Shown: positions 3,497 to 7,761 of the stretch, one piece after another
How positions within the stretch are numbered: the stretch's first letter is position 1
How the letters are laid out: every line of letters begins with the position of its first letter
The notes under the pieces: model-generated
What the model was told of the DNA's origin: nothing
The model's database searches: none
Seen by the model: the letters and a program-made list of their open reading frames with translations, nothing else
Translations under genes and position numbers: made by a program
Origin: Cylindrospermopsis raciborskii Cr2010
GTDB taxonomy: Bacteria; Cyanobacteriota; Cyanobacteriia; Cyanobacteriales; Nostocaceae
Direction of reading: 5' to 3'
Length of the DNA stretch: 32,000 bases
Assembly: GCF_003367075.2 (NCBI RefSeq)
Contig: NZ_CP065936.1
Location: forward strand, 330,001 to 362,000

Positions 3497-5542
3497 CTAC
3501 GACTTTTCTATAAGCTGTTCGGGAAACATACATTTGTCAGAATCACAAGCAGTTGGCCCTGATTCTATTAATTCACCTAAATCATAACGACTTAGAGCTT
3601 GACAAAAATCTTCCGTTCTCCGTCGCAACTTTACCTGAGCGGATAACATTTGATATGTTTTCTGATCTATCGGTTCAAAGGGTAGACGAGGAAAGGTTTG
3701 AATATCATCAAATCTCCCTAGTATGGCTGCTGAAATATACCCTTCATCCTTCTGAATGGCTTCATATATGCGAGTTCCTAAGCATTCAACTTCGTCAGAT
3801 CTCAATTCTAAGGTTGCTGAGGTATTATGGGTAGTATAACACCTCTGTACCTCCATGACAAAATCTAACTGAGCCAAAGCAGAAAATTTGGATACATCTA
3901 TTTTGTCTGCTCCTGGTAAATCCGCCCAAGAAACCGCTACGGGGATTTCTACTAACCACTCACTACAACGGGGGTCAAAGGGATTATCCAGTAAATTACC
4001 TTGTTCGTCTTTATCAGATTGGGAAGGTATGACACTGTACCCATAATCCAAACAAGCTAGAGCTACTGGGTCGTTTTTACGGAAAGTAATCCGACGAATA
4101 AATCGTTGCGCTTTGGGAGGGTGCCAACCAGGAGAAGCACCTGTTAATAAGGATTTTGTGCCGCTAGGTTGAACAGTGGTACAACGATTGGGCCTTTTAA
4201 TCCCATGTTTGTCGCAATATTCCCAAACGGTTTGATGTACTATTTCTCGCCATTTATTGAGATATTTTTGCTCACCCCGTTTAAATATTAGTCCTTCCTG
4301 GGTTTCTGGTCTTCCCTGTTCCCACCAATGTAACCACTCCACACCAAAAGCATGAACAAAGAAGTCAAACAACCCCGTGAAGGAAACACCAACAATGGGA
4401 TCCAATTCTCGACTATGTTGATAGCGGATCTCCTGAAATTTGTGATTTAATAAGGCAGCTACGGATATAGCAGCTGCTTTAAAGGCTTCCTCCTGTTCCT
4501 TATAGTTATCAGGATCAATTTGGTTTAAATGTACTTCGGCTAAGTTACAATGGAAGTCAGCACCAATAATTTCACCACAGGGGTTTAAACCATATCTACC
4601 CAAACGATGTTCCAGCTCTGAATCTTCCATCTCTGGATAATTTTCTTTTATCCATGTTCTGGCCTGTCCTGTTGCATAAGCATTCAGAAACTGTTTTTTT
4701 AGTTCAAGGGTTTTGAGTAAATCAATATTTGCTCTAGCTACTGTTTCACCAGCCCATTGAATTGCTCCTTCACCACTATAATACTGTTTCTGAACAGCTG
4801 CAAGGCATTCTTCTAAAGTAGGTTTGTGATGAAACACTCGAGTATGATTGGCCATGCGCAAAGCATCTCTTTCTGGGTCTATGCTCCAGTTTCCTTGAGC
4901 ATCTTGTTTCCACAGATTATCTTTGGCTGTTGCTCCATTTTCATCCTCTGCAATGAATTGTCTCATACCCGCCGATCTCCGAATATTACCAGCAACAATT
5001 GATACGGCAGCTTCGTCTATTAATAGACAGCATTCGACGGAATTTAACTTTCTACCTACAGCTTGGTTGAGAATAGAAGCACAACGAGTATATAATCCGG
5101 ATAATTTGACTGGGTTAGCAACACCACCAAATCCCTTGAGGGTTTCTCCGGAGCGACGCACATCATCAAGATTTACACACACTTGAATATCATCGGTAAA
5201 GCGTATATCCGTAGAGAGTTCTAGAAGGGTTTGGTAGGAATTTACCCAACCTTCTCGACTATCTCCTACATAAATAGTCACCCGATTACCTTCTATAACT
5301 GTTTCTGTAAACTCCCGACGGTCTTTTTCTGGAGTGTTGCCAATTTTCCCCTGAATGGTCACCTGTAACCGATTACGAATGGGGGGTAATTGATTAATAT
5401 ACTGGGGTTCAATCACTGCTCCTGTACCACAACCCATCATGGCCAGATCCATCATTAAACCAAATGCTTGCCAATCTATGAGGTTTGTAGAAGTGCAGTT
5501 ATAAGCTCCAGAGAAATTTTTCGACTTTTTTAACCATTCCGT
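3497..5542 (-). CDS. nrdJ: class II (adenosylcobalamin-dependent) ribonucleotide reductase NrdJ, exon 2
   Basis: The frame is open from 5542 (TEWLKKSKNFSGAYNCTSTNLIDWQAFGLMMDLAMMGCGTGAV...) through the stop at 3497. It includes RNR active-site-type segments (NPCGEI, TTVQPSGT). An in-frame TAG lies immediately upstream of 5545, inside the intron. This exon encodes 681 aa. Confidence 0.9.
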   Translation of the reverse strand, partial: TEWLKKSKNFSGAYNCTSTNLIDWQAFGLMMDLAMMGCGTGAVIEPQYINQLPPIRNRLQVTIQGKIGNTPEKDRREFTETVIEGNRVTIYVGDSREGWVNSYQTLLELSTDIRFTDDIQVCVNLDDVRRSGETLKGFGGVANPVKLSGLYTRCASILNQAVGRKLNSVECCLLIDEAAVSIVAGNIRRSAGMRQFIAEDENGATAKDNLWKQDAQGNWSIDPERDALRMANHTRVFHHKPTLEECLAAVQKQYYSGEGAIQWAGETVARANIDLLKTLELKKQFLNAYATGQARTWIKENYPEMEDSELEHRLGRYGLNPCGEIIGADFHCNLAEVHLNQIDPDNYKEQEEAFKAAAISVAALLNHKFQEIRYQHSRELDPIVGVSFTGLFDFFVHAFGVEWLHWWEQGRPETQEGLIFKRGEQKYLNKWREIVHQTVWEYCDKHGIKRPNRCTTVQPSGTKSLLTGASPGWHPPKAQRFIRRITFRKNDPVALACLDYGYSVIPSQSDKDEQGNLLDNPFDPRCSEWLVEIPVAVSWADLPGADKIDVSKFSALAQLDFVMEVQRCYTTHNTSATLELRSDEVECLGTRIYEAIQKDEGYISAAILGRFDDIQTFPRLPFEPIDQKTYQMLSAQVKLRRRTEDFCQALSRYDLGELIESGPTACDSDKCMFPEQLIEKS

Positions 5543-5583
5543 ATGACCCTAAGCCACATTGTCTCCAATATGACTCGGCTTCA
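5543..5583 (-). ncRNA. group II intron domain VI with candidate branch-point A (5550)
   Basis: RNA reads UGAAGCCGAGUCAUAUUG-GAGA-CAAUGUGGCUUAGGGUCAU. CAUAUUG pairs with CAAUGUG around a GAGA loop, and the stem extends outward. An unpaired A lies 7 nt from the 3' splice site. Confidence 0.65.
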
Positions 5584-5617
5584 GAACCGTGCGTGATACT
5601 TTCGCATCACACGGCTC
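5584..5617 (-). ncRNA. group II intron domain V (catalytic hairpin)
   Basis: Minus strand reads GAGCCGUGUGAUGCGAAAGUAUCACGCACGGUUC, 34 nt. It has the AGC triad at positions 2-4, a GAAA tetraloop and a 2-nt bulge (CG) on the 3' arm, as in the DV consensus. Confidence 0.9.
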
Positions 5618-5635
5618 CTCAATGATTTGGCTCTT

Positions 5636-6919
5636 TTAAGAGTACCAATTTGGGGTTGATGTCTTGGTATAGGTGTCACACTGCTTGACAGCGTTGAGAA
5701 ATCCATGATGGTAGGTAAGGTACACCGGTTGACTTTCTTCAAACGCACGAAATACCCAATTAGCTTGGTCTTTGGAGCCAAAATATTTCTCGACCCACTG
5801 TTTGGTGGATTTGTGATTATGTCTGGCCTTCACCCAGGCAATTAATTTTAAGGTCATTAGGTGGTCTAGCTTTTGGAATGTTTTAGCACTATTAACAGGG
5901 AAATAATAGTTACTCCATCTGGTAATGATGGGATTTAGTCGTTTAATTAAGTCTAATTGGGATTGACAAGACTTAAATTTATCTATTTCTTGAGCTAGTT
6001 CCCCATAATGGGTTTTAATTGCTTCTTGACTGGGCTGGATGAAAGTTTGATACCTTTGTGGTTGGGAATGGGTTTTGATTTCATATTGGCGGATATTAAA
6101 GTCCAGAAAATTGAACCCAGGGGATTTTGTACCCTTGAGAGTTTGCTCCAAGTTGATTTGTATACCTAGATCACTCAGAAACTTCTCAATCAGTATTTTA
6201 GCCTTGATAATTACATCGAATTCAGAATCTAGCAGTGCAAATTCGCTGCCATGTCTAATCAAGGTTATTTCCTCTTTTTTACCTGGAATAGTTTTGCCAT
6301 ATTCTCGGACAATTTTTTCCATGCCATGGAGAGCAATACTGACTAAAAGCGGGGAAAGTAAACTACCGGGATGGATTATCTCTTGATTTAATAACCATGA
6401 GTTAAGATTGTATATACCCGATTTCATTCCTACCCTTATTTGCCTACGGAGTTTTGGGAAAGTATTTATCTTACTTAATAGCTTTTCGTAGTCAATTTGC
6501 TCGAAGTGTTGGGCAAGATTGGCACTGATAACATACTTGCTACCATACCTCATTGCCTCTTTAATAGCCATTATAGGATCCATATAAGTTTTACCCGGTC
6601 GGAATCCATAACTATGAGACTCAAATTTAGCCTCCCACTCAGGTTCTAGAGCCAGTTTAATCAATAATTGTTGTGCTTGGTATTCTGTTCTTACTTGGCG
6701 AATAGCAAGCATTTTGGCAGACCAGGAATTCAGCAGAGTCTTTTGCAGTTTACGCACTACCTTAACATCTCCCCGACTAGAGGCTTGATAAATTCTCTGT
6801 TGCAACTTGTACACAGCCCTTTCTAGCTTACGCCAGTTTATCTGTGCCCATACCACCATCGGTGTTTTCCGTGTTTTAGTCATTTTCATTGCTATATGAA
6901 ACTCTATCTTCCAAATCAT
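5636..6919 (-). CDS. group II intron-encoded protein: degenerate reverse transcriptase retaining the maturase (X) domain, no En domain
   Basis: RT0-like INWRKLERAVYKLQQRIY, ALEPEWEAKF, SYGFRPG, SPLLVSIALHG. X-domain RLNPIITRWSNYY. YADD position reads HGSE; RT1/RT2 (TAGVDG, RPLGIPT) are absent. Likely start at MKMTKT (6889). Confidence 0.9.
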   Translation of the reverse strand: MIWKIEFHIAMKMTKTRKTPMVVWAQINWRKLERAVYKLQQRIYQASSRGDVKVVRKLQKTLLNSWSAKMLAIRQVRTEYQAQQLLIKLALEPEWEAKFESHSYGFRPGKTYMDPIMAIKEAMRYGSKYVISANLAQHFEQIDYEKLLSKINTFPKLRRQIRVGMKSGIYNLNSWLLNQEIIHPGSLLSPLLVSIALHGMEKIVREYGKTIPGKKEEITLIRHGSEFALLDSEFDVIIKAKILIEKFLSDLGIQINLEQTLKGTKSPGFNFLDFNIRQYEIKTHSQPQRYQTFIQPSQEAIKTHYGELAQEIDKFKSCQSQLDLIKRLNPIITRWSNYYFPVNSAKTFQKLDHLMTLKLIAWVKARHNHKSTKQWVEKYFGSKDQANWVFRAFEESQPVYLTYHHGFLNAVKQCDTYTKTSTPNWYS

Positions 6920-7126
6920 CGGGAATCTGTCAGCTTATTCATACCCATTACAGGTAGACCTTTGCTTCTGATTCCATCTCTTTTTATTAGAGCTTGCGGA
7001 TTGGTTCCTACTTCCCTATCGACCCCGGAAAGAGCTGCTAATAAAATTACTTCGTTCCGTATAACCATTGATTTGAGTGTTTAGGATGGCACTACTCAGC
7101 CGGAGACAGGAAAGCGTGACCTTAAT

Positions 7127-7132
7127 GGTGGT
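7127..7132 (-). other. candidate EBS1 of the intron
   Basis: Minus strand ACCACC is perfectly complementary to the last six nucleotides of exon 1 (GGUGGU, 7509..7504). It lies about 370 nt into the intron. Confidence 0.5.
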
Positions 7133-7503
7133 ACTTTTGGGTTCCTTAATGTCTCTTTGTCTTTTGACAGCAGCGTATCAACCATTTTTTTCGCTACTTG
7201 CTAGGTGACGACTGTTTAGATGTACCTTCACTTTCGTTATCCATGCACTCCTGCTCGCTGGGATTCACCTCATGGTTTGGTGTTACCAGCTTTTTTCCCC
7301 GCTTTACCCTTTGATTACCAGTCCCTAGGTAGGGGAAATGCTTTCACTCCCACGCTTGGAGGATAGGACTCTGTGTCTATCACATCACCTATAAGGTTAT
7401 ACAGTTATTTGGGTTCGGTTAACCGTACTTTTTTATTCGGTTGTTGAACCCACCGAATCATCCCCCGGTTCAATTAAACCAGTTTCGATTCAACGAATCA
7501 CAC

Positions 7504-7761
7504 ACCACCAACCCACAACCATCTTCCACTCGGTAAGGCTTTCATCTGTAGTTGCATTTTTTCTAACAGTGCAGTTTCTTCCAAGTTGAGTTTTCCTAAC
7601 TCTACTAGTCCTTTTAAAGTGCGATCGCATACATCGCTCCAGGATTCTCTTAATCCTGTTTGGGTGCGACGGCTATAGGTCCTGAAAAACACAGGATTGG
7701 CTGCGGGAGCAGTTTCGGGAAAGGACGCAATCTGGCGTGGACGTTTCAGTTCTTGAACCAT
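7504..7761 (-). CDS. nrdJ: class II ribonucleotide reductase NrdJ, exon 1 (86 aa)
   Basis: MVQELKRPRQIASFPETAPAANPVFFRTYSRR...SGRWLWVGG. The ORF-track stop (7498-7500) lies inside the intron 5' GUGUGA. Confidence 0.9.

What the first reader, a model, noticed from the sequence alone, without database searches (positions are those of the whole stretch)
5636..6919. The intron-encoded protein is an RT-dead, maturase-only derivative
I compared the sequence with the usual bacterial group II IEP layout. The RT0 region and the motifs ALEPEWEAKF, SYGFRPG and SPLLVSIALHG are recognisable. Three changes stand out. (i) The segment that normally holds RT1/RT2 (..TAGVDG.. and ..RPLGIPT..) is missing: the sequence goes from LAIRQVRTEYQAQQ straight to LLIKLALEPEWE, roughly 55 aa short. 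(ii) The RT3/4 aspartate context DxDIxxCFDxI reads SANLAQHFEQI. (iii) The catalytic YADD reads HGSE (LIRHGSEFALL). The thumb/X maturase region (RLNPIITRWSNYY, KLIAWVKARH) is well preserved, and there is no C-terminal HNH/En domain. I infer that the protein cannot reverse-transcribe, so the intron is immobile, but it is kept under selection as a splicing factor for an essential host gene. That would be a bacterial parallel to organellar MatK/nMat domestication.
Basis: partly seen in the sequence, partly recalled or inferred. Interest (0 to 1): 0.7.

Follow-up and report, generated by a model that had tools for sequence, protein, structure and literature searches.

The report
RT-dead maturase in nrdJ intron
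A self-splicing group II intron sits inside the ribonucleotide reductase gene of a Cylindrospermopsis/Raphidiopsis cyanobacterium, and its encoded protein has lost everything needed to copy RNA into DNA or cut DNA but is still kept by selection, most likely as a splicing helper; this is rare in bacteria, though the kind is already described.

Summary
ORF 5636..6919(-), probable start 6883, lies in domain IV of a 1961-nt group II intron (7503..5543, - strand). The intron splits a class II ribonucleotide reductase gene (nrdJ/RTPR).

Full-length relatives occupy exactly the same nrdJ site in Nostoc and Microseira. Against them, this protein:
- lacks 58 codons covering RT1/RT2;
- lacks all three catalytic aspartates (DADIAKCFD to SANLAQHFE, YADD to HGSE);
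- lacks the RT4 QGG motif;
- lacks nearly all of the D and HNH domains.

RT0 keeps 23 of 25 family-conserved columns and the X/thumb keeps 31 of 33. The AlphaFold model still superposes on the T.el4h intron protein (TM 0.71-0.74).

Seven DNA versions (88-99% protein identity) all keep the ORF open, and indels within this clade are in frame. dN/dS is about 0.22 (p about 1e-12), with dS equal to that of the nrdJ exons. The ribozyme 5' part is 98-99% identical and has a canonical D5, a D6 branch A and a 6-bp EBS1-IBS1 pairing.

Reverse-transcriptase loss is near certain. Maturase function, immobility and nrdJ essentiality are inferred, not tested.

The kind is known (MatK; O.i.I2 in Oceanobacillus). 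I found no description of this case. Other IEPs at this nrdJ site show milder active-site decay.

The parts
7504..7761 (-). nrdJ exon 1 (86 codons, ends ...WLWVGG). The last 6 nt, GGUGGU (7504..7509), are IBS1.
   Evidence: ORF list. Splice-site alignment with Nostoc and Microseira loci. The spliced product matches TIGR02505 in a single stretch.
5543..7503 (-). Group II intron, 1961 nt, chloroplast-like (probably IIB2). 5' end GUGUGA, 3' end ...GGGUCAU.
   Evidence: Rfam D5 and Intron_gpII hits. Boundaries from alignment with orthologous introns and from exon continuity.
6920..7503 (-). Ribozyme domains I-III and IVa. 97.9-99.3% identical among the four diverged short-clade loci compared with the window, far below the synonymous divergence of the flanking coding sequence. 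The two peripheral stem-loops near the 5' end are trimmed relative to Nostoc and Microseira.
7127..7132 (-). Candidate EBS1 (ACCACC). It forms 6 Watson-Crick pairs with IBS1 GGUGGU.
   Evidence: Microseira L006 covaries (exon GGCGGU with ACCGCC).
5636..6919 (-). Intron-encoded protein ORF (427 aa at its maximum extent). The likely start is the ATG at 6883 (M13, MTKTRK...), giving 415 aa. Stop TAA at 5636..5638, just upstream of D5.
   Evidence: The M13 start is shared with full-length homologues, which have a stop codon upstream of it. NCBI annotates C. raciborskii proteins of 410 aa, a length that fits a start at M13.
6683..6850 (-). RT0 / RVT_N region (aa 24-79), retained.
   Evidence: Pfam RVT_N 9.9e-19. 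23 of 25 family-conserved columns are kept.
6676..6677 (-). Junction of the 174-nt (58-codon) in-frame deletion that removed RT1 and RT2.
   Evidence: DNA and protein alignments.
6500..6526 (-). RT3 remnant SANLAQHFE, in place of DADIAKCFD. The first catalytic Asp is replaced by Ser.
6242..6253 (-). RT5 remnant HGSE, in place of YADD.
5780..5983 (-). X / thumb (maturase) domain core, aa 313-380.
   Evidence: Pfam GIIM 7.5e-16. 31 of 33 conserved columns are kept. dN/dS about 0.15.
5692..5693 (-). Junction of the deletion of about 231 nt that removed most of the D domain and the whole HNH domain. At least the last dozen or so of the downstream residues are read in a frame shifted from the ancestral one.
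   Evidence: For aa 411-427, dN/dS is about 1 on very few sites and is not significant.
5584..5617 (-). Domain V: 34-nt hairpin with AGC triad, AC bulge and GAAA loop.
   Evidence: Rfam RF04357 at 54.4 bits and RF00029 at 51.5 bits. Fold.
5546..5582 (-). Domain VI helix with the bulged branch-point A at 5550, 7 nt before the 3' splice site.
3497..5542 (-). nrdJ exon 2 (681 codons plus stop), starting TEWLKKSKNFSGAYNC.

Best explanation
The locus is a splicing-competent, chloroplast-like group II intron fixed in nrdJ of the Cylindrospermopsis/Raphidiopsis lineage.

It descends from a full retroelement: an RT0-RT-X-D-HNH IEP still occupies the identical nrdJ site in Nostoc, Microseira and Trichodesmium-like genomes. 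In this lineage the IEP lost the RT1/RT2 fingers, all catalytic aspartates, the dNTP-binding QGG and the DNA-binding and endonuclease domains. It therefore cannot reverse-transcribe or cleave DNA.

What is kept is RT0, the fingers/palm scaffold and the X/thumb. In solved group II RNPs these hold domain IVa and contact domain I.

I infer the following mechanism. The protein is translated from the unspliced nrdJ transcript. It binds its own intron (domain IVa is conserved) and stabilises the catalytic fold. The intron then excises by branching at A5550, joining WLWVGG to TEWL and giving a functional RTPR.

Shown here: the loss of RT and En determinants, the retained fold, purifying selection on the protein, very strong constraint on the ribozyme, and a correct exon junction.

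Inferred: maturase activity, dependence of splicing on the protein, immobility, and essentiality of nrdJ.
For: - Anatomy.
- Conserved-column audit against 113 longer relatives. Columns kept: RT0 23/25, RT1-2 0/33, RT3 core to RT5 27/51, RT6-7 11/22, X 31/33, D+En 1/31.
- TIGR04416 bit scores fall from 330 (Nostoc, Microseira) to 141.5 here.
- The AF2 model (pLDDT 77.6, pTM 0.72) matches the T.el4h IEP in its RNP (8fli_B, E 5e-18, TM 0.74; 6me0_C, TM 0.71).
- Selection: dN/dS about 0.22 with p 2.6e-12. The RT remnant gives p 2.5e-9 and X gives p 1e-4. ORF dS equals exon dS.
- Seven intact versions of the ORF.
- Ribozyme: the 5' part is 97.9-99.3% identical while dS reaches 0.22-0.26.
- Canonical D5 and D6 with a branch A. 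EBS1-IBS1 forms 6 bp, with covariation in Microseira.
- The spliced protein matches TIGR02505 at 755 bits in one stretch.
- Literature: YADD-to-YAHH mutants assist splicing as well as wild type (PMC8643678), so RT catalysis is dispensable for maturase function.
Against: - No experimental or transcript evidence for splicing or for protein-RNA binding was available.
- dN/dS of 0.22 is higher than that of nrdJ (about 0.09), so constraint is moderate.
- The RT-remnant region has diverged strongly from intact relatives (44-66% identity against 74-94% for an intact comparator), so the binding surfaces may have changed.
- I could not scan whole Cylindrospermopsis genomes for other introns or for an intact helper RT.
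- Selection on a protein does not say which function is selected.
Confidence: 0.75

Rival explanations
1. The ORF is a slowly decaying relic with no function. The ribozyme self-splices or relies on host factors, and the open frame is a historical accident.
For: Large deletions and replacement of about half of the conserved RT-core columns show that constraint was relaxed in the past. The C-terminal tail looks neutral. There is a strain-specific 6-aa deletion, plus a further 5-aa deletion in one strain's protein.
Against: dN/dS is about 0.22 with p about 1e-12 at synonymous divergence up to 0.26. There are no frameshifts or stop codons in seven versions, and every indel among the short-clade sequences is in frame. 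RT0 and X are almost untouched.
Confidence: 0.08
2. The protein is selected for a function other than, or beyond, cis-maturase activity. It might be a general maturase for ORF-less sibling introns elsewhere in the genome (as reported for the Trichodesmium RIR intron protein), or a regulator that couples nrdJ expression to intron excision.
For: The Trichodesmium precedent is cited in PMC4649490 and PMC12584367. The RT remnant remains under purifying selection although it is catalytically dead.
Against: Only one D5 is present in the 32-kb window. The genome-collection scan, which can only find close relatives, found the protein once in R. brookii D9. These genomes are small (3.2-3.9 Mb; figures quoted in PMC3610870 from Stucken et al. 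2010, PMC2821919). No data here point to other targets.
Confidence: 0.12
3. The intron is still mobile, either through residual polymerase activity of this protein or through an intact RT supplied in trans by another element.
For: ORF-less introns can be mobilised in trans in Thermosynechococcus (PMC2882425). The ribozyme, EBS1 and D5/D6 are intact.
Against: All three catalytic Asp positions, RT1/RT2, QGG, D and HNH are missing. Every copy found sits at the single nrdJ site. No second copy was seen.
Confidence: 0.04

Closest known systems
Full-length IEPs of the orthologous nrdJ intron in Nostoc sp. DSM 114159 (P0010), Microseira wollei (P0009) and Nostoc sp. (P0012)
   Same: The insertion site in nrdJ is identical (GGUGGU|GUGUGA ... 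AU|AC). The ribozyme core is near-identical. RT0, X and domain IVa are shared. Protein identity is 47-54% by BLASTP and about 60% in the alignment.
   Different: They keep RT1/RT2, DxDIxxCFD, QGG, YADD, D and HNH, and they pass TIGR04416 (330 bits). Their ORF reads through D5 and D6.
Thermosynechococcus T.el4h intron RT/maturase (PDB 6ME0, 8FLI)
   Same: It is the best solved homologue (E 5e-37). The predicted fold superposes at TM 0.71-0.74. It belongs to a cyanobacterial intron protein lineage.
   Different: T.el4h is an active RT once YAGD is restored to YADD, and it is mobile (PMC2882425). It has RT1/RT2.
O.i.I2 of Oceanobacillus iheyensis, the only bacterial degenerate IEP listed by Zimmerly and Semper 2015 (PMC4424553)
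   Same: A bacterial group II intron in a protein-coding gene. Its IEP lacks YADD and other RT motifs but keeps an open frame, and it is inferred to be maturase-only.
   Different: O.i.I2 is of the ML class, sits in radC and is in a Firmicute. The present case is chloroplast-like, sits in nrdJ, has a defined RT1/RT2 deletion, and has comparative evidence for purifying selection and intact orthologues at the same site. I did not examine the O.i.I2 sequence here.
Chloroplast MatK (trnK intron) and plant nMat proteins
   Same: These are IEP derivatives that lost RT motifs but keep domain X and act as splicing factors for introns in essential genes (PMC4424553).
   Different: They are organellar or nuclear. 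MatK serves several introns. MatK lacks alignable RT0-RT4, whereas here RT0 and RT3-7 are still alignable. No homology closer than the general IEP family was tested.
Trichodesmium erythraeum RIR (nrdJ) intron protein acting as a general maturase (Meng et al. 2005, cited in PMC4649490 and PMC12584367; the paper itself is not held)
   Same: The host gene is the same. A Trichodesmium MAG IEP (P0032) sits after an 85-aa exon 1, apparently the same site. It carries YADN instead of YADD.
   Different: It is full length (563 aa) with RT1/RT2 and HNH. It is documented to serve ORF-less introns in dnaN. I did not verify which of the RIR introns P0032 corresponds to.

Membership tests
Group II intron ribozyme | 5' GUGYG and 3' AY termini | tested here: met
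   GUGUGA at 7503..7498 and ...GGGUCAU ending at 5543.
Group II intron ribozyme | Domain V hairpin with AGC triad, 2-nt bulge and GNRA loop | tested here: met
   Rfam RF04357 at 54.4 bits (gathering 53) and RF00029 at 51.5 bits (gathering 40). The fold shows AGC, an AC bulge and GAAA.
Group II intron ribozyme | Domain VI with a bulged branch-point A 7-8 nt from the 3' splice site | tested here: met
   A5550 is the single bulge in the D6 helix, 7 nt before the 3' end.
Group II intron ribozyme | EBS1-IBS1 pairing with the 5' exon | tested here: met
   ACCACC (7127..7132) pairs with GGUGGU (7504..7509). Microseira has a compensatory change.
Group II intron ribozyme | Excision restores a continuous host reading frame | tested here: met
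   The joined exons give a 767-aa protein that matches TIGR02505 at 755 bits in one stretch, residues 10-759. The junction aligns with L. leichmannii RTPR.
Group II intron ribozyme | Splicing observed in vivo or in vitro | not testable with these tools
   No transcript data are available.
Group II intron reverse transcriptase/maturase (TIGR04416 equivalog) | Score at or above the curated cut-off (300 bits) | tested here: not met
   141.5 bits, matching profile positions 76-353 only. The Nostoc and Microseira orthologues score 330.
Group II intron reverse transcriptase/maturase (TIGR04416 equivalog) | RT1 and RT2 finger motifs | tested here: not met
   A 58-codon deletion. 0 of 33 conserved columns are retained.
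Group II intron reverse transcriptase/maturase (TIGR04416 equivalog) | Catalytic Asp triad (RT3 D, RT5 YADD) | tested here: not met
   S132 and HGSE in the window and the four short relatives in the alignment, and in the translations of the other DNA versions.
Group II intron reverse transcriptase/maturase (TIGR04416 equivalog) | RT0 N-terminal extension and X/thumb domain | tested here: met
   RVT_N 9.9e-19 and GIIM 7.5e-16. Columns kept: 23/25 and 31/33.
Group II intron reverse transcriptase/maturase (TIGR04416 equivalog) | HNH endonuclease domain (present in this lineage's full-length members) | tested here: not met
   No PF01844 hit. The region is deleted.
Degenerate, maturase-only IEP (MatK / O.i.I2 type, as defined in PMC4424553) | Descent from an RT-type IEP, located in domain IV of a group II intron | tested here: met
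Degenerate, maturase-only IEP (MatK / O.i.I2 type, as defined in PMC4424553) | Loss of YADD and other RT motifs with retention of domain X | tested here: met
Degenerate, maturase-only IEP (MatK / O.i.I2 type, as defined in PMC4424553) | ORF kept open and under purifying selection | tested here: met
   Seven intact versions. dN/dS about 0.22, p 2.6e-12.
Degenerate, maturase-only IEP (MatK / O.i.I2 type, as defined in PMC4424553) | Demonstrated maturase (splicing-promoting) activity and absence of RT activity | not testable with these tools
   This needs splicing and RT assays.

The most novel reading that the evidence does not exclude
The nrdJ-site intron of filamentous cyanobacteria may be a long-resident, host-dependent intron whose protein is repeatedly being converted from retroelement enzyme to pure splicing factor.

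The relatives form a natural graded series:
- intact YADD IEPs in Nostoc and Microseira;
- single active-site substitutions (YADN, YASD, YADH, YAED, YAAD, YADY) in Trichodesmium-like and other relatives;
- a fully stripped RT0-scaffold-X protein with a trimmed ribozyme in the genome-reduced Cylindrospermopsis/Raphidiopsis clade.

That would be a bacterial, still-ongoing equivalent of the organellar path to MatK. It could be dissected experimentally with orthologous introns at a single site.
Probability: 0.35. Interest if true: 0.65.

Novelty: new member of a known kind. Interest (0 to 1): 0.5.

Why it matters
Bacterial group II introns are normally selfish retroelements that avoid essential genes. 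Conversion to immobile, splicing-only introns with a dedicated maturase is regarded as an organellar trait and as a step on the road to spliceosomal introns. A 2015 review knew a single bacterial degenerate IEP (PMC4424553).

This case adds a clear second example with stronger evidence:
- the host gene encodes a class II ribonucleotide reductase (a core DNA-precursor enzyme);
- intact orthologues occupy the very same site;
- there is measurable purifying selection on a catalytically dead RT scaffold.

It defines a minimal protein (RT0, fingers/palm scaffold and X; about 415 aa; no RT1/2, D or En). That protein could be used to ask which parts of an IEP suffice for maturase function.

In practice, such proteins are annotated as 'reverse transcriptase N-terminal domain-containing protein' or 'hypothetical'. 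The split nrdJ is called as separate fragments on the public contigs looked up.

Tried and rejected
- Rfam scan of the intron at a permissive E-value, looking for a D1-D4 family: only D5/D6-type families matched. Ribozyme integrity was therefore judged from alignment with orthologous introns and from folding.
- Scan of the genome collection for siblings: only one locus came back (R. brookii D9) because the tool finds close relatives only.
- Metagenome scan: only two further orthologues and one unrelated 33% hit.
- Literature searches for Cylindrospermopsis with group II intron or intron, and for nrdJ with group II intron, found no description of this locus. Stucken et al. 2010 does not mention introns or RTs.
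- The two Trichodesmium primary papers (Liu 2003, Meng 2005) are not held, so their content is cited only through later papers.
- I considered that low dN might reflect RNA-level constraint on the ORF. I rejected this because ORF dS equals exon dS.
- I considered the 427-aa start at 6919 to be real. More likely the start is M13 (6883). The upstream 12 codons lie in conserved domain IVa RNA, are closed by a stop codon in Nostoc, and M11 is ATA in L001.
Full report
**Where the ORF sits**

ORF 5636..6919 on the minus strand (427 aa) lies between two minus-strand ORFs that are the two halves of a class II ribonucleotide reductase gene. Rfam places a group II domain V/VI at 5501..5620(-) (RF04357 at 54.4 bits, RF00029 at 51.5 bits).

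I fixed the intron boundaries by aligning the region with three loci that carry full-length relatives of the protein: Microseira wollei L006, Nostoc sp. DSM 114159 L007 and Nostoc sp. L008. The intron runs from 7503 (GUGUGA) to 5543 (...GGGUCAU) and is 1961 nt long.

Joining 7761..7504 to 5542..3497 gives a 767-aa protein. It matches TIGR02505 (adenosylcobalamin-dependent ribonucleoside-triphosphate reductase) at 755 bits in one uninterrupted stretch. The junction PSGRWLWVGG|TEWL aligns with PSGRNLWISGTDY of the Lactobacillus leichmannii enzyme.

**Check of the observation**

- Pfam finds RVT_N (9.9e-19) and GIIM (7.5e-16) but only a weak RVT_1 match (45 bits).
- The NCBIfam equivalog for group II RT/maturases scores 141.5 bits against a cut-off of 300. 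The match begins only at profile position 76. The Nostoc and Microseira orthologues score 330 bits over the whole profile.
- The protein and DNA alignments show a clean 174-nt, 58-codon deletion between EYQ and AQQ (6677|6676). It removes RT1 (TAGxDG) and RT2 (RPLGIP).
- DADIAKCFD is replaced by SANLAQHFE (6500..6526), TPQGG by IHPGS, and YADD by HGSE (6242..6253).
- There are three smaller in-frame deletions of 12, 21 and 21 nt.
- A deletion of about 231 nt after N409 (5693|5692) removes most of the DNA-binding region and the entire HNH domain.
- The alignment with the solved T.el4h protein (6me0_C, E 5e-37) shows the same substitutions.
- No profile places an alternative RT1/RT2 or an Asp-containing active site elsewhere in the protein.

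**What is lost and what is kept**

I aligned the protein with 117 relatives (A2). I then audited the 228 columns that are at least 90% conserved among the 113 longer sequences. The table shows how many of those columns all five short proteins keep.

| Region | Conserved columns kept |
|---|---|
| RT0 | 23 of 25 |
| RT1-RT2 | 0 of 33 (30 deleted) |
| RT2a / N-terminal RT3 | 24 of 33 |
| RT3 core to RT5 | 27 of 51 |
| RT6-RT7 | 11 of 22 |
| X/thumb | 31 of 33 |
| D + En | 1 of 31 |

I also measured identity to four full-length nrdJ-site IEPs, beside an intact comparator of similar RT0 distance.

| Region | Window protein | Intact comparator (P0020) |
|---|---|---|
| RT0 | 83% | 82% |
| RT2a | 66% | 94% |
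| RT3 core to RT5 | 52% | 79% |
| RT6-7 | 44% | 74% |
| X | 68% | 78% |

The acceleration is therefore concentrated in the polymerase core.

The AlphaFold2 model (pLDDT 77.6, pTM 0.72) still has the group II IEP fold. Its best PDB matches are the T.el4h protein in its ribonucleoprotein: 8fli_B (E 5e-18, TM 0.74) and 6me0_C (TM 0.71). Low-confidence segments are the N-terminus, residues 157-172 (the former RT4 region) and the C-terminal tail.

**Is it maintained?**

I collected six further DNA versions of the locus:

- four that are 88-96% identical in protein: L001, L003, L004 and Raphidiopsis brookii D9 (L005);
- two more from metagenomes, L013 and L014.

All sit in the same nrdJ intron. All keep the frame open, and every indel among them is in frame.

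| Segment | dN/dS | Fisher p (window vs L001) |
|---|---|---|
| Whole ORF | about 0.22 (dS 0.223, dN 0.051) | 2.6e-12 |
| RT remnant | about 0.2 | 2.5e-9 |
| X | about 0.15 | 1e-4 |
| aa 411-427 | about 1 (very few sites) | not significant |

At least the final dozen or so residues are read in a frame shifted from the ancestral one.

ORF dS (0.11-0.26) equals the dS of nrdJ exon 2 (0.10-0.24). The low dN is therefore a protein-level constraint, not an RNA-level one. nrdJ itself has dN/dS of about 0.09.

**The ribozyme**

- Domains I to IVa are 97.9-99.3% identical among these loci, far less diverged than synonymous sites. The core is nearly invariant even against Nostoc and Microseira.
- Domain V (5584..5617) has the AGC triad, AC bulge and GAAA loop.
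- Domain VI has a single bulged A at 5550, 7 nt from the 3' end.
- ACCACC at 7127..7132 pairs perfectly with the last six exon nucleotides, GGUGGU. Microseira shows the compensatory pair GGCGGU/ACCGCC.
- The two peripheral stem-loops near the 5' end are trimmed in the short-IEP clade, and trimmed further in the L003/L005/L014 subclade. Such stem-loops are typical of cyanobacterial IIB2 introns according to PMC8643678.
- The intron is about 600 nt shorter than its Nostoc counterpart.

**Mechanism**

Shown:
- the protein lacks every determinant needed for polymerisation and DNA cleavage;
- it retains the IEP fold, RT0 and X;
- it is under purifying selection;
- the ribozyme has all catalytic hallmarks and is under very strong constraint;
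- excision restores a conserved enzyme.

From established knowledge:
- RT catalysis is not needed for maturase activity. YADD-to-YAHH mutants splice normally (PMC8643678 and references there).
- IEPs bind domain IVa through the N-terminal RT region and contact the ribozyme through the thumb (my own knowledge of the LtrA and T.el4h RNP structures).

Inferred:
- the protein binds its own intron in the nrdJ pre-mRNA and promotes folding and branching at A5550;
- the intron no longer moves;
- the arrangement is held in place because nrdJ is needed. I did not test whether nrdJ is the only RNR here.

I put 0.75 on this reading. Rivals are a functionless relic (0.08), a different or broader selected function such as a general maturase for other introns (0.12), and residual or trans-supplied mobility (0.04).

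**Comparison with what is known**

[quoted passage not shown] It is typified by MatK. They state that such degeneration is rare in bacteria, with O.i.I2 of Oceanobacillus iheyensis (in radC) as the only known example at that time.

In Trichodesmium the nrdJ (RIR) gene carries several group II introns, and one IEP acts as a general maturase (cited in PMC4649490, PMC12584367 and PMC4143802).

My searches found no description of the Cylindrospermopsis/Raphidiopsis locus. Public annotations call the protein 'reverse transcriptase N-terminal domain-containing protein' or 'hypothetical protein'.

The protein fails the membership test for an RT/maturase equivalog: score, RT1/2, catalytic Asp and HNH are all not met. 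It meets every sequence-testable criterion for the degenerate, maturase-only class. I therefore file it as a new member of a known kind.

**An extension**

Among the closest relatives, ten longer IEPs have a broken catalytic motif:

- P0019: YASD
- P0022: YADN
- P0025: YADY, plus degenerate RT3 and RT4
- P0026: YADH, and En-less
- P0028: YAAD
- P0029: YAED
- P0030, P0031 and P0032: YADN
- P0100: keeps YADD but has N in place of the RT3 aspartate

P0025, P0026 and P0032 sit after an 85-86-aa nrdJ exon 1, apparently the same site. Their TIGR04416 scores are intermediate, at 229-278 bits.

The nrdJ-site intron lineage may thus be losing RT function repeatedly, with the Cylindrospermopsis/Raphidiopsis form as the end point. 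I did not test whether these are independent losses or whether those proteins are under selection.

**Verdict**

Maturase activity, immobility and essentiality remain inferences. Interest is moderate, at 0.5. A group II intron specialist would find this a clean and useful natural example rather than a new principle.

Noticed in passing
L006 about 5250-5400, L007 about 5250-5400, L008; window 5549..5551: In the full-length relatives the IEP reading frame runs through domains V and VI (…EEPCDAKVSRTVLKPSHIGDNVA*). Its UAG stop codon contains the branch-point adenosine of domain VI. In the window the same RNA sequence is kept but is no longer translated, because the ORF now stops at 5636, upstream of D5.
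   Followed up: partly
P0019, P0022, P0025, P0026, P0028-P0032, P0100; loci L009, L010, L011/L012: Ten longer relatives have single substitutions in the catalytic motifs: YASD, YADN, YADY, YADH, YAAD, YAED, or N for the RT3 Asp. Three that I checked (P0025, P0026, P0032) lie in nrdJ after an 85-86-aa exon 1, and their TIGR04416 scores are intermediate (229-278 bits). This suggests recurrent RT decay in this intron lineage.
   Followed up: partly
window 7445..7476; L003, L005, L014: The two peripheral stem-loops near the 5' end of the intron are shortened by about 20 and 28 nt relative to Nostoc and Microseira. A further 23 nt is missing in the L003/L005/L014 subclade. The ribozyme has been trimmed together with the ORF.
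   Followed up: partly
window versus L004 (3497..6919): The IEP ORF of L004 is much closer to the window (dS 0.039) than nrdJ exon 2 is (dS 0.156). The other loci show similar dS in both. This suggests recombination or gene conversion within nrdJ between strains.
   Followed up: no
P0008, P0012 (L008 about 3830-3880): Two otherwise intact IEPs carry a 15-aa insertion (HGSRxNGGNPRNxLP) inside RT2, just before PLGIP.
   Followed up: no
L006 6592-8565, L009 3972-7797: nrdJ of Microseira and of a Trichodesmium MAG carries additional insertions (LAGLIDADG/intein-type domains) downstream of this intron. The window's nrdJ has only the one intron and no intein.
   Followed up: no
window 6884..6919: The 12 codons upstream of M13 (MIWKIEFHIAMK) lie in conserved domain IVa RNA. 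In Nostoc the same ATG is followed by a stop codon. In the short clade the frame is open but M11 is ATA in L001. The annotated 427-aa start is therefore probably not the real one.
   Followed up: yes
window 5580..5620: The best Rfam match for domain V is a plastid family (Plastid-ndhA-ndhB-2 D5) rather than a bacterial one. This fits a chloroplast-like intron lineage.
   Followed up: no
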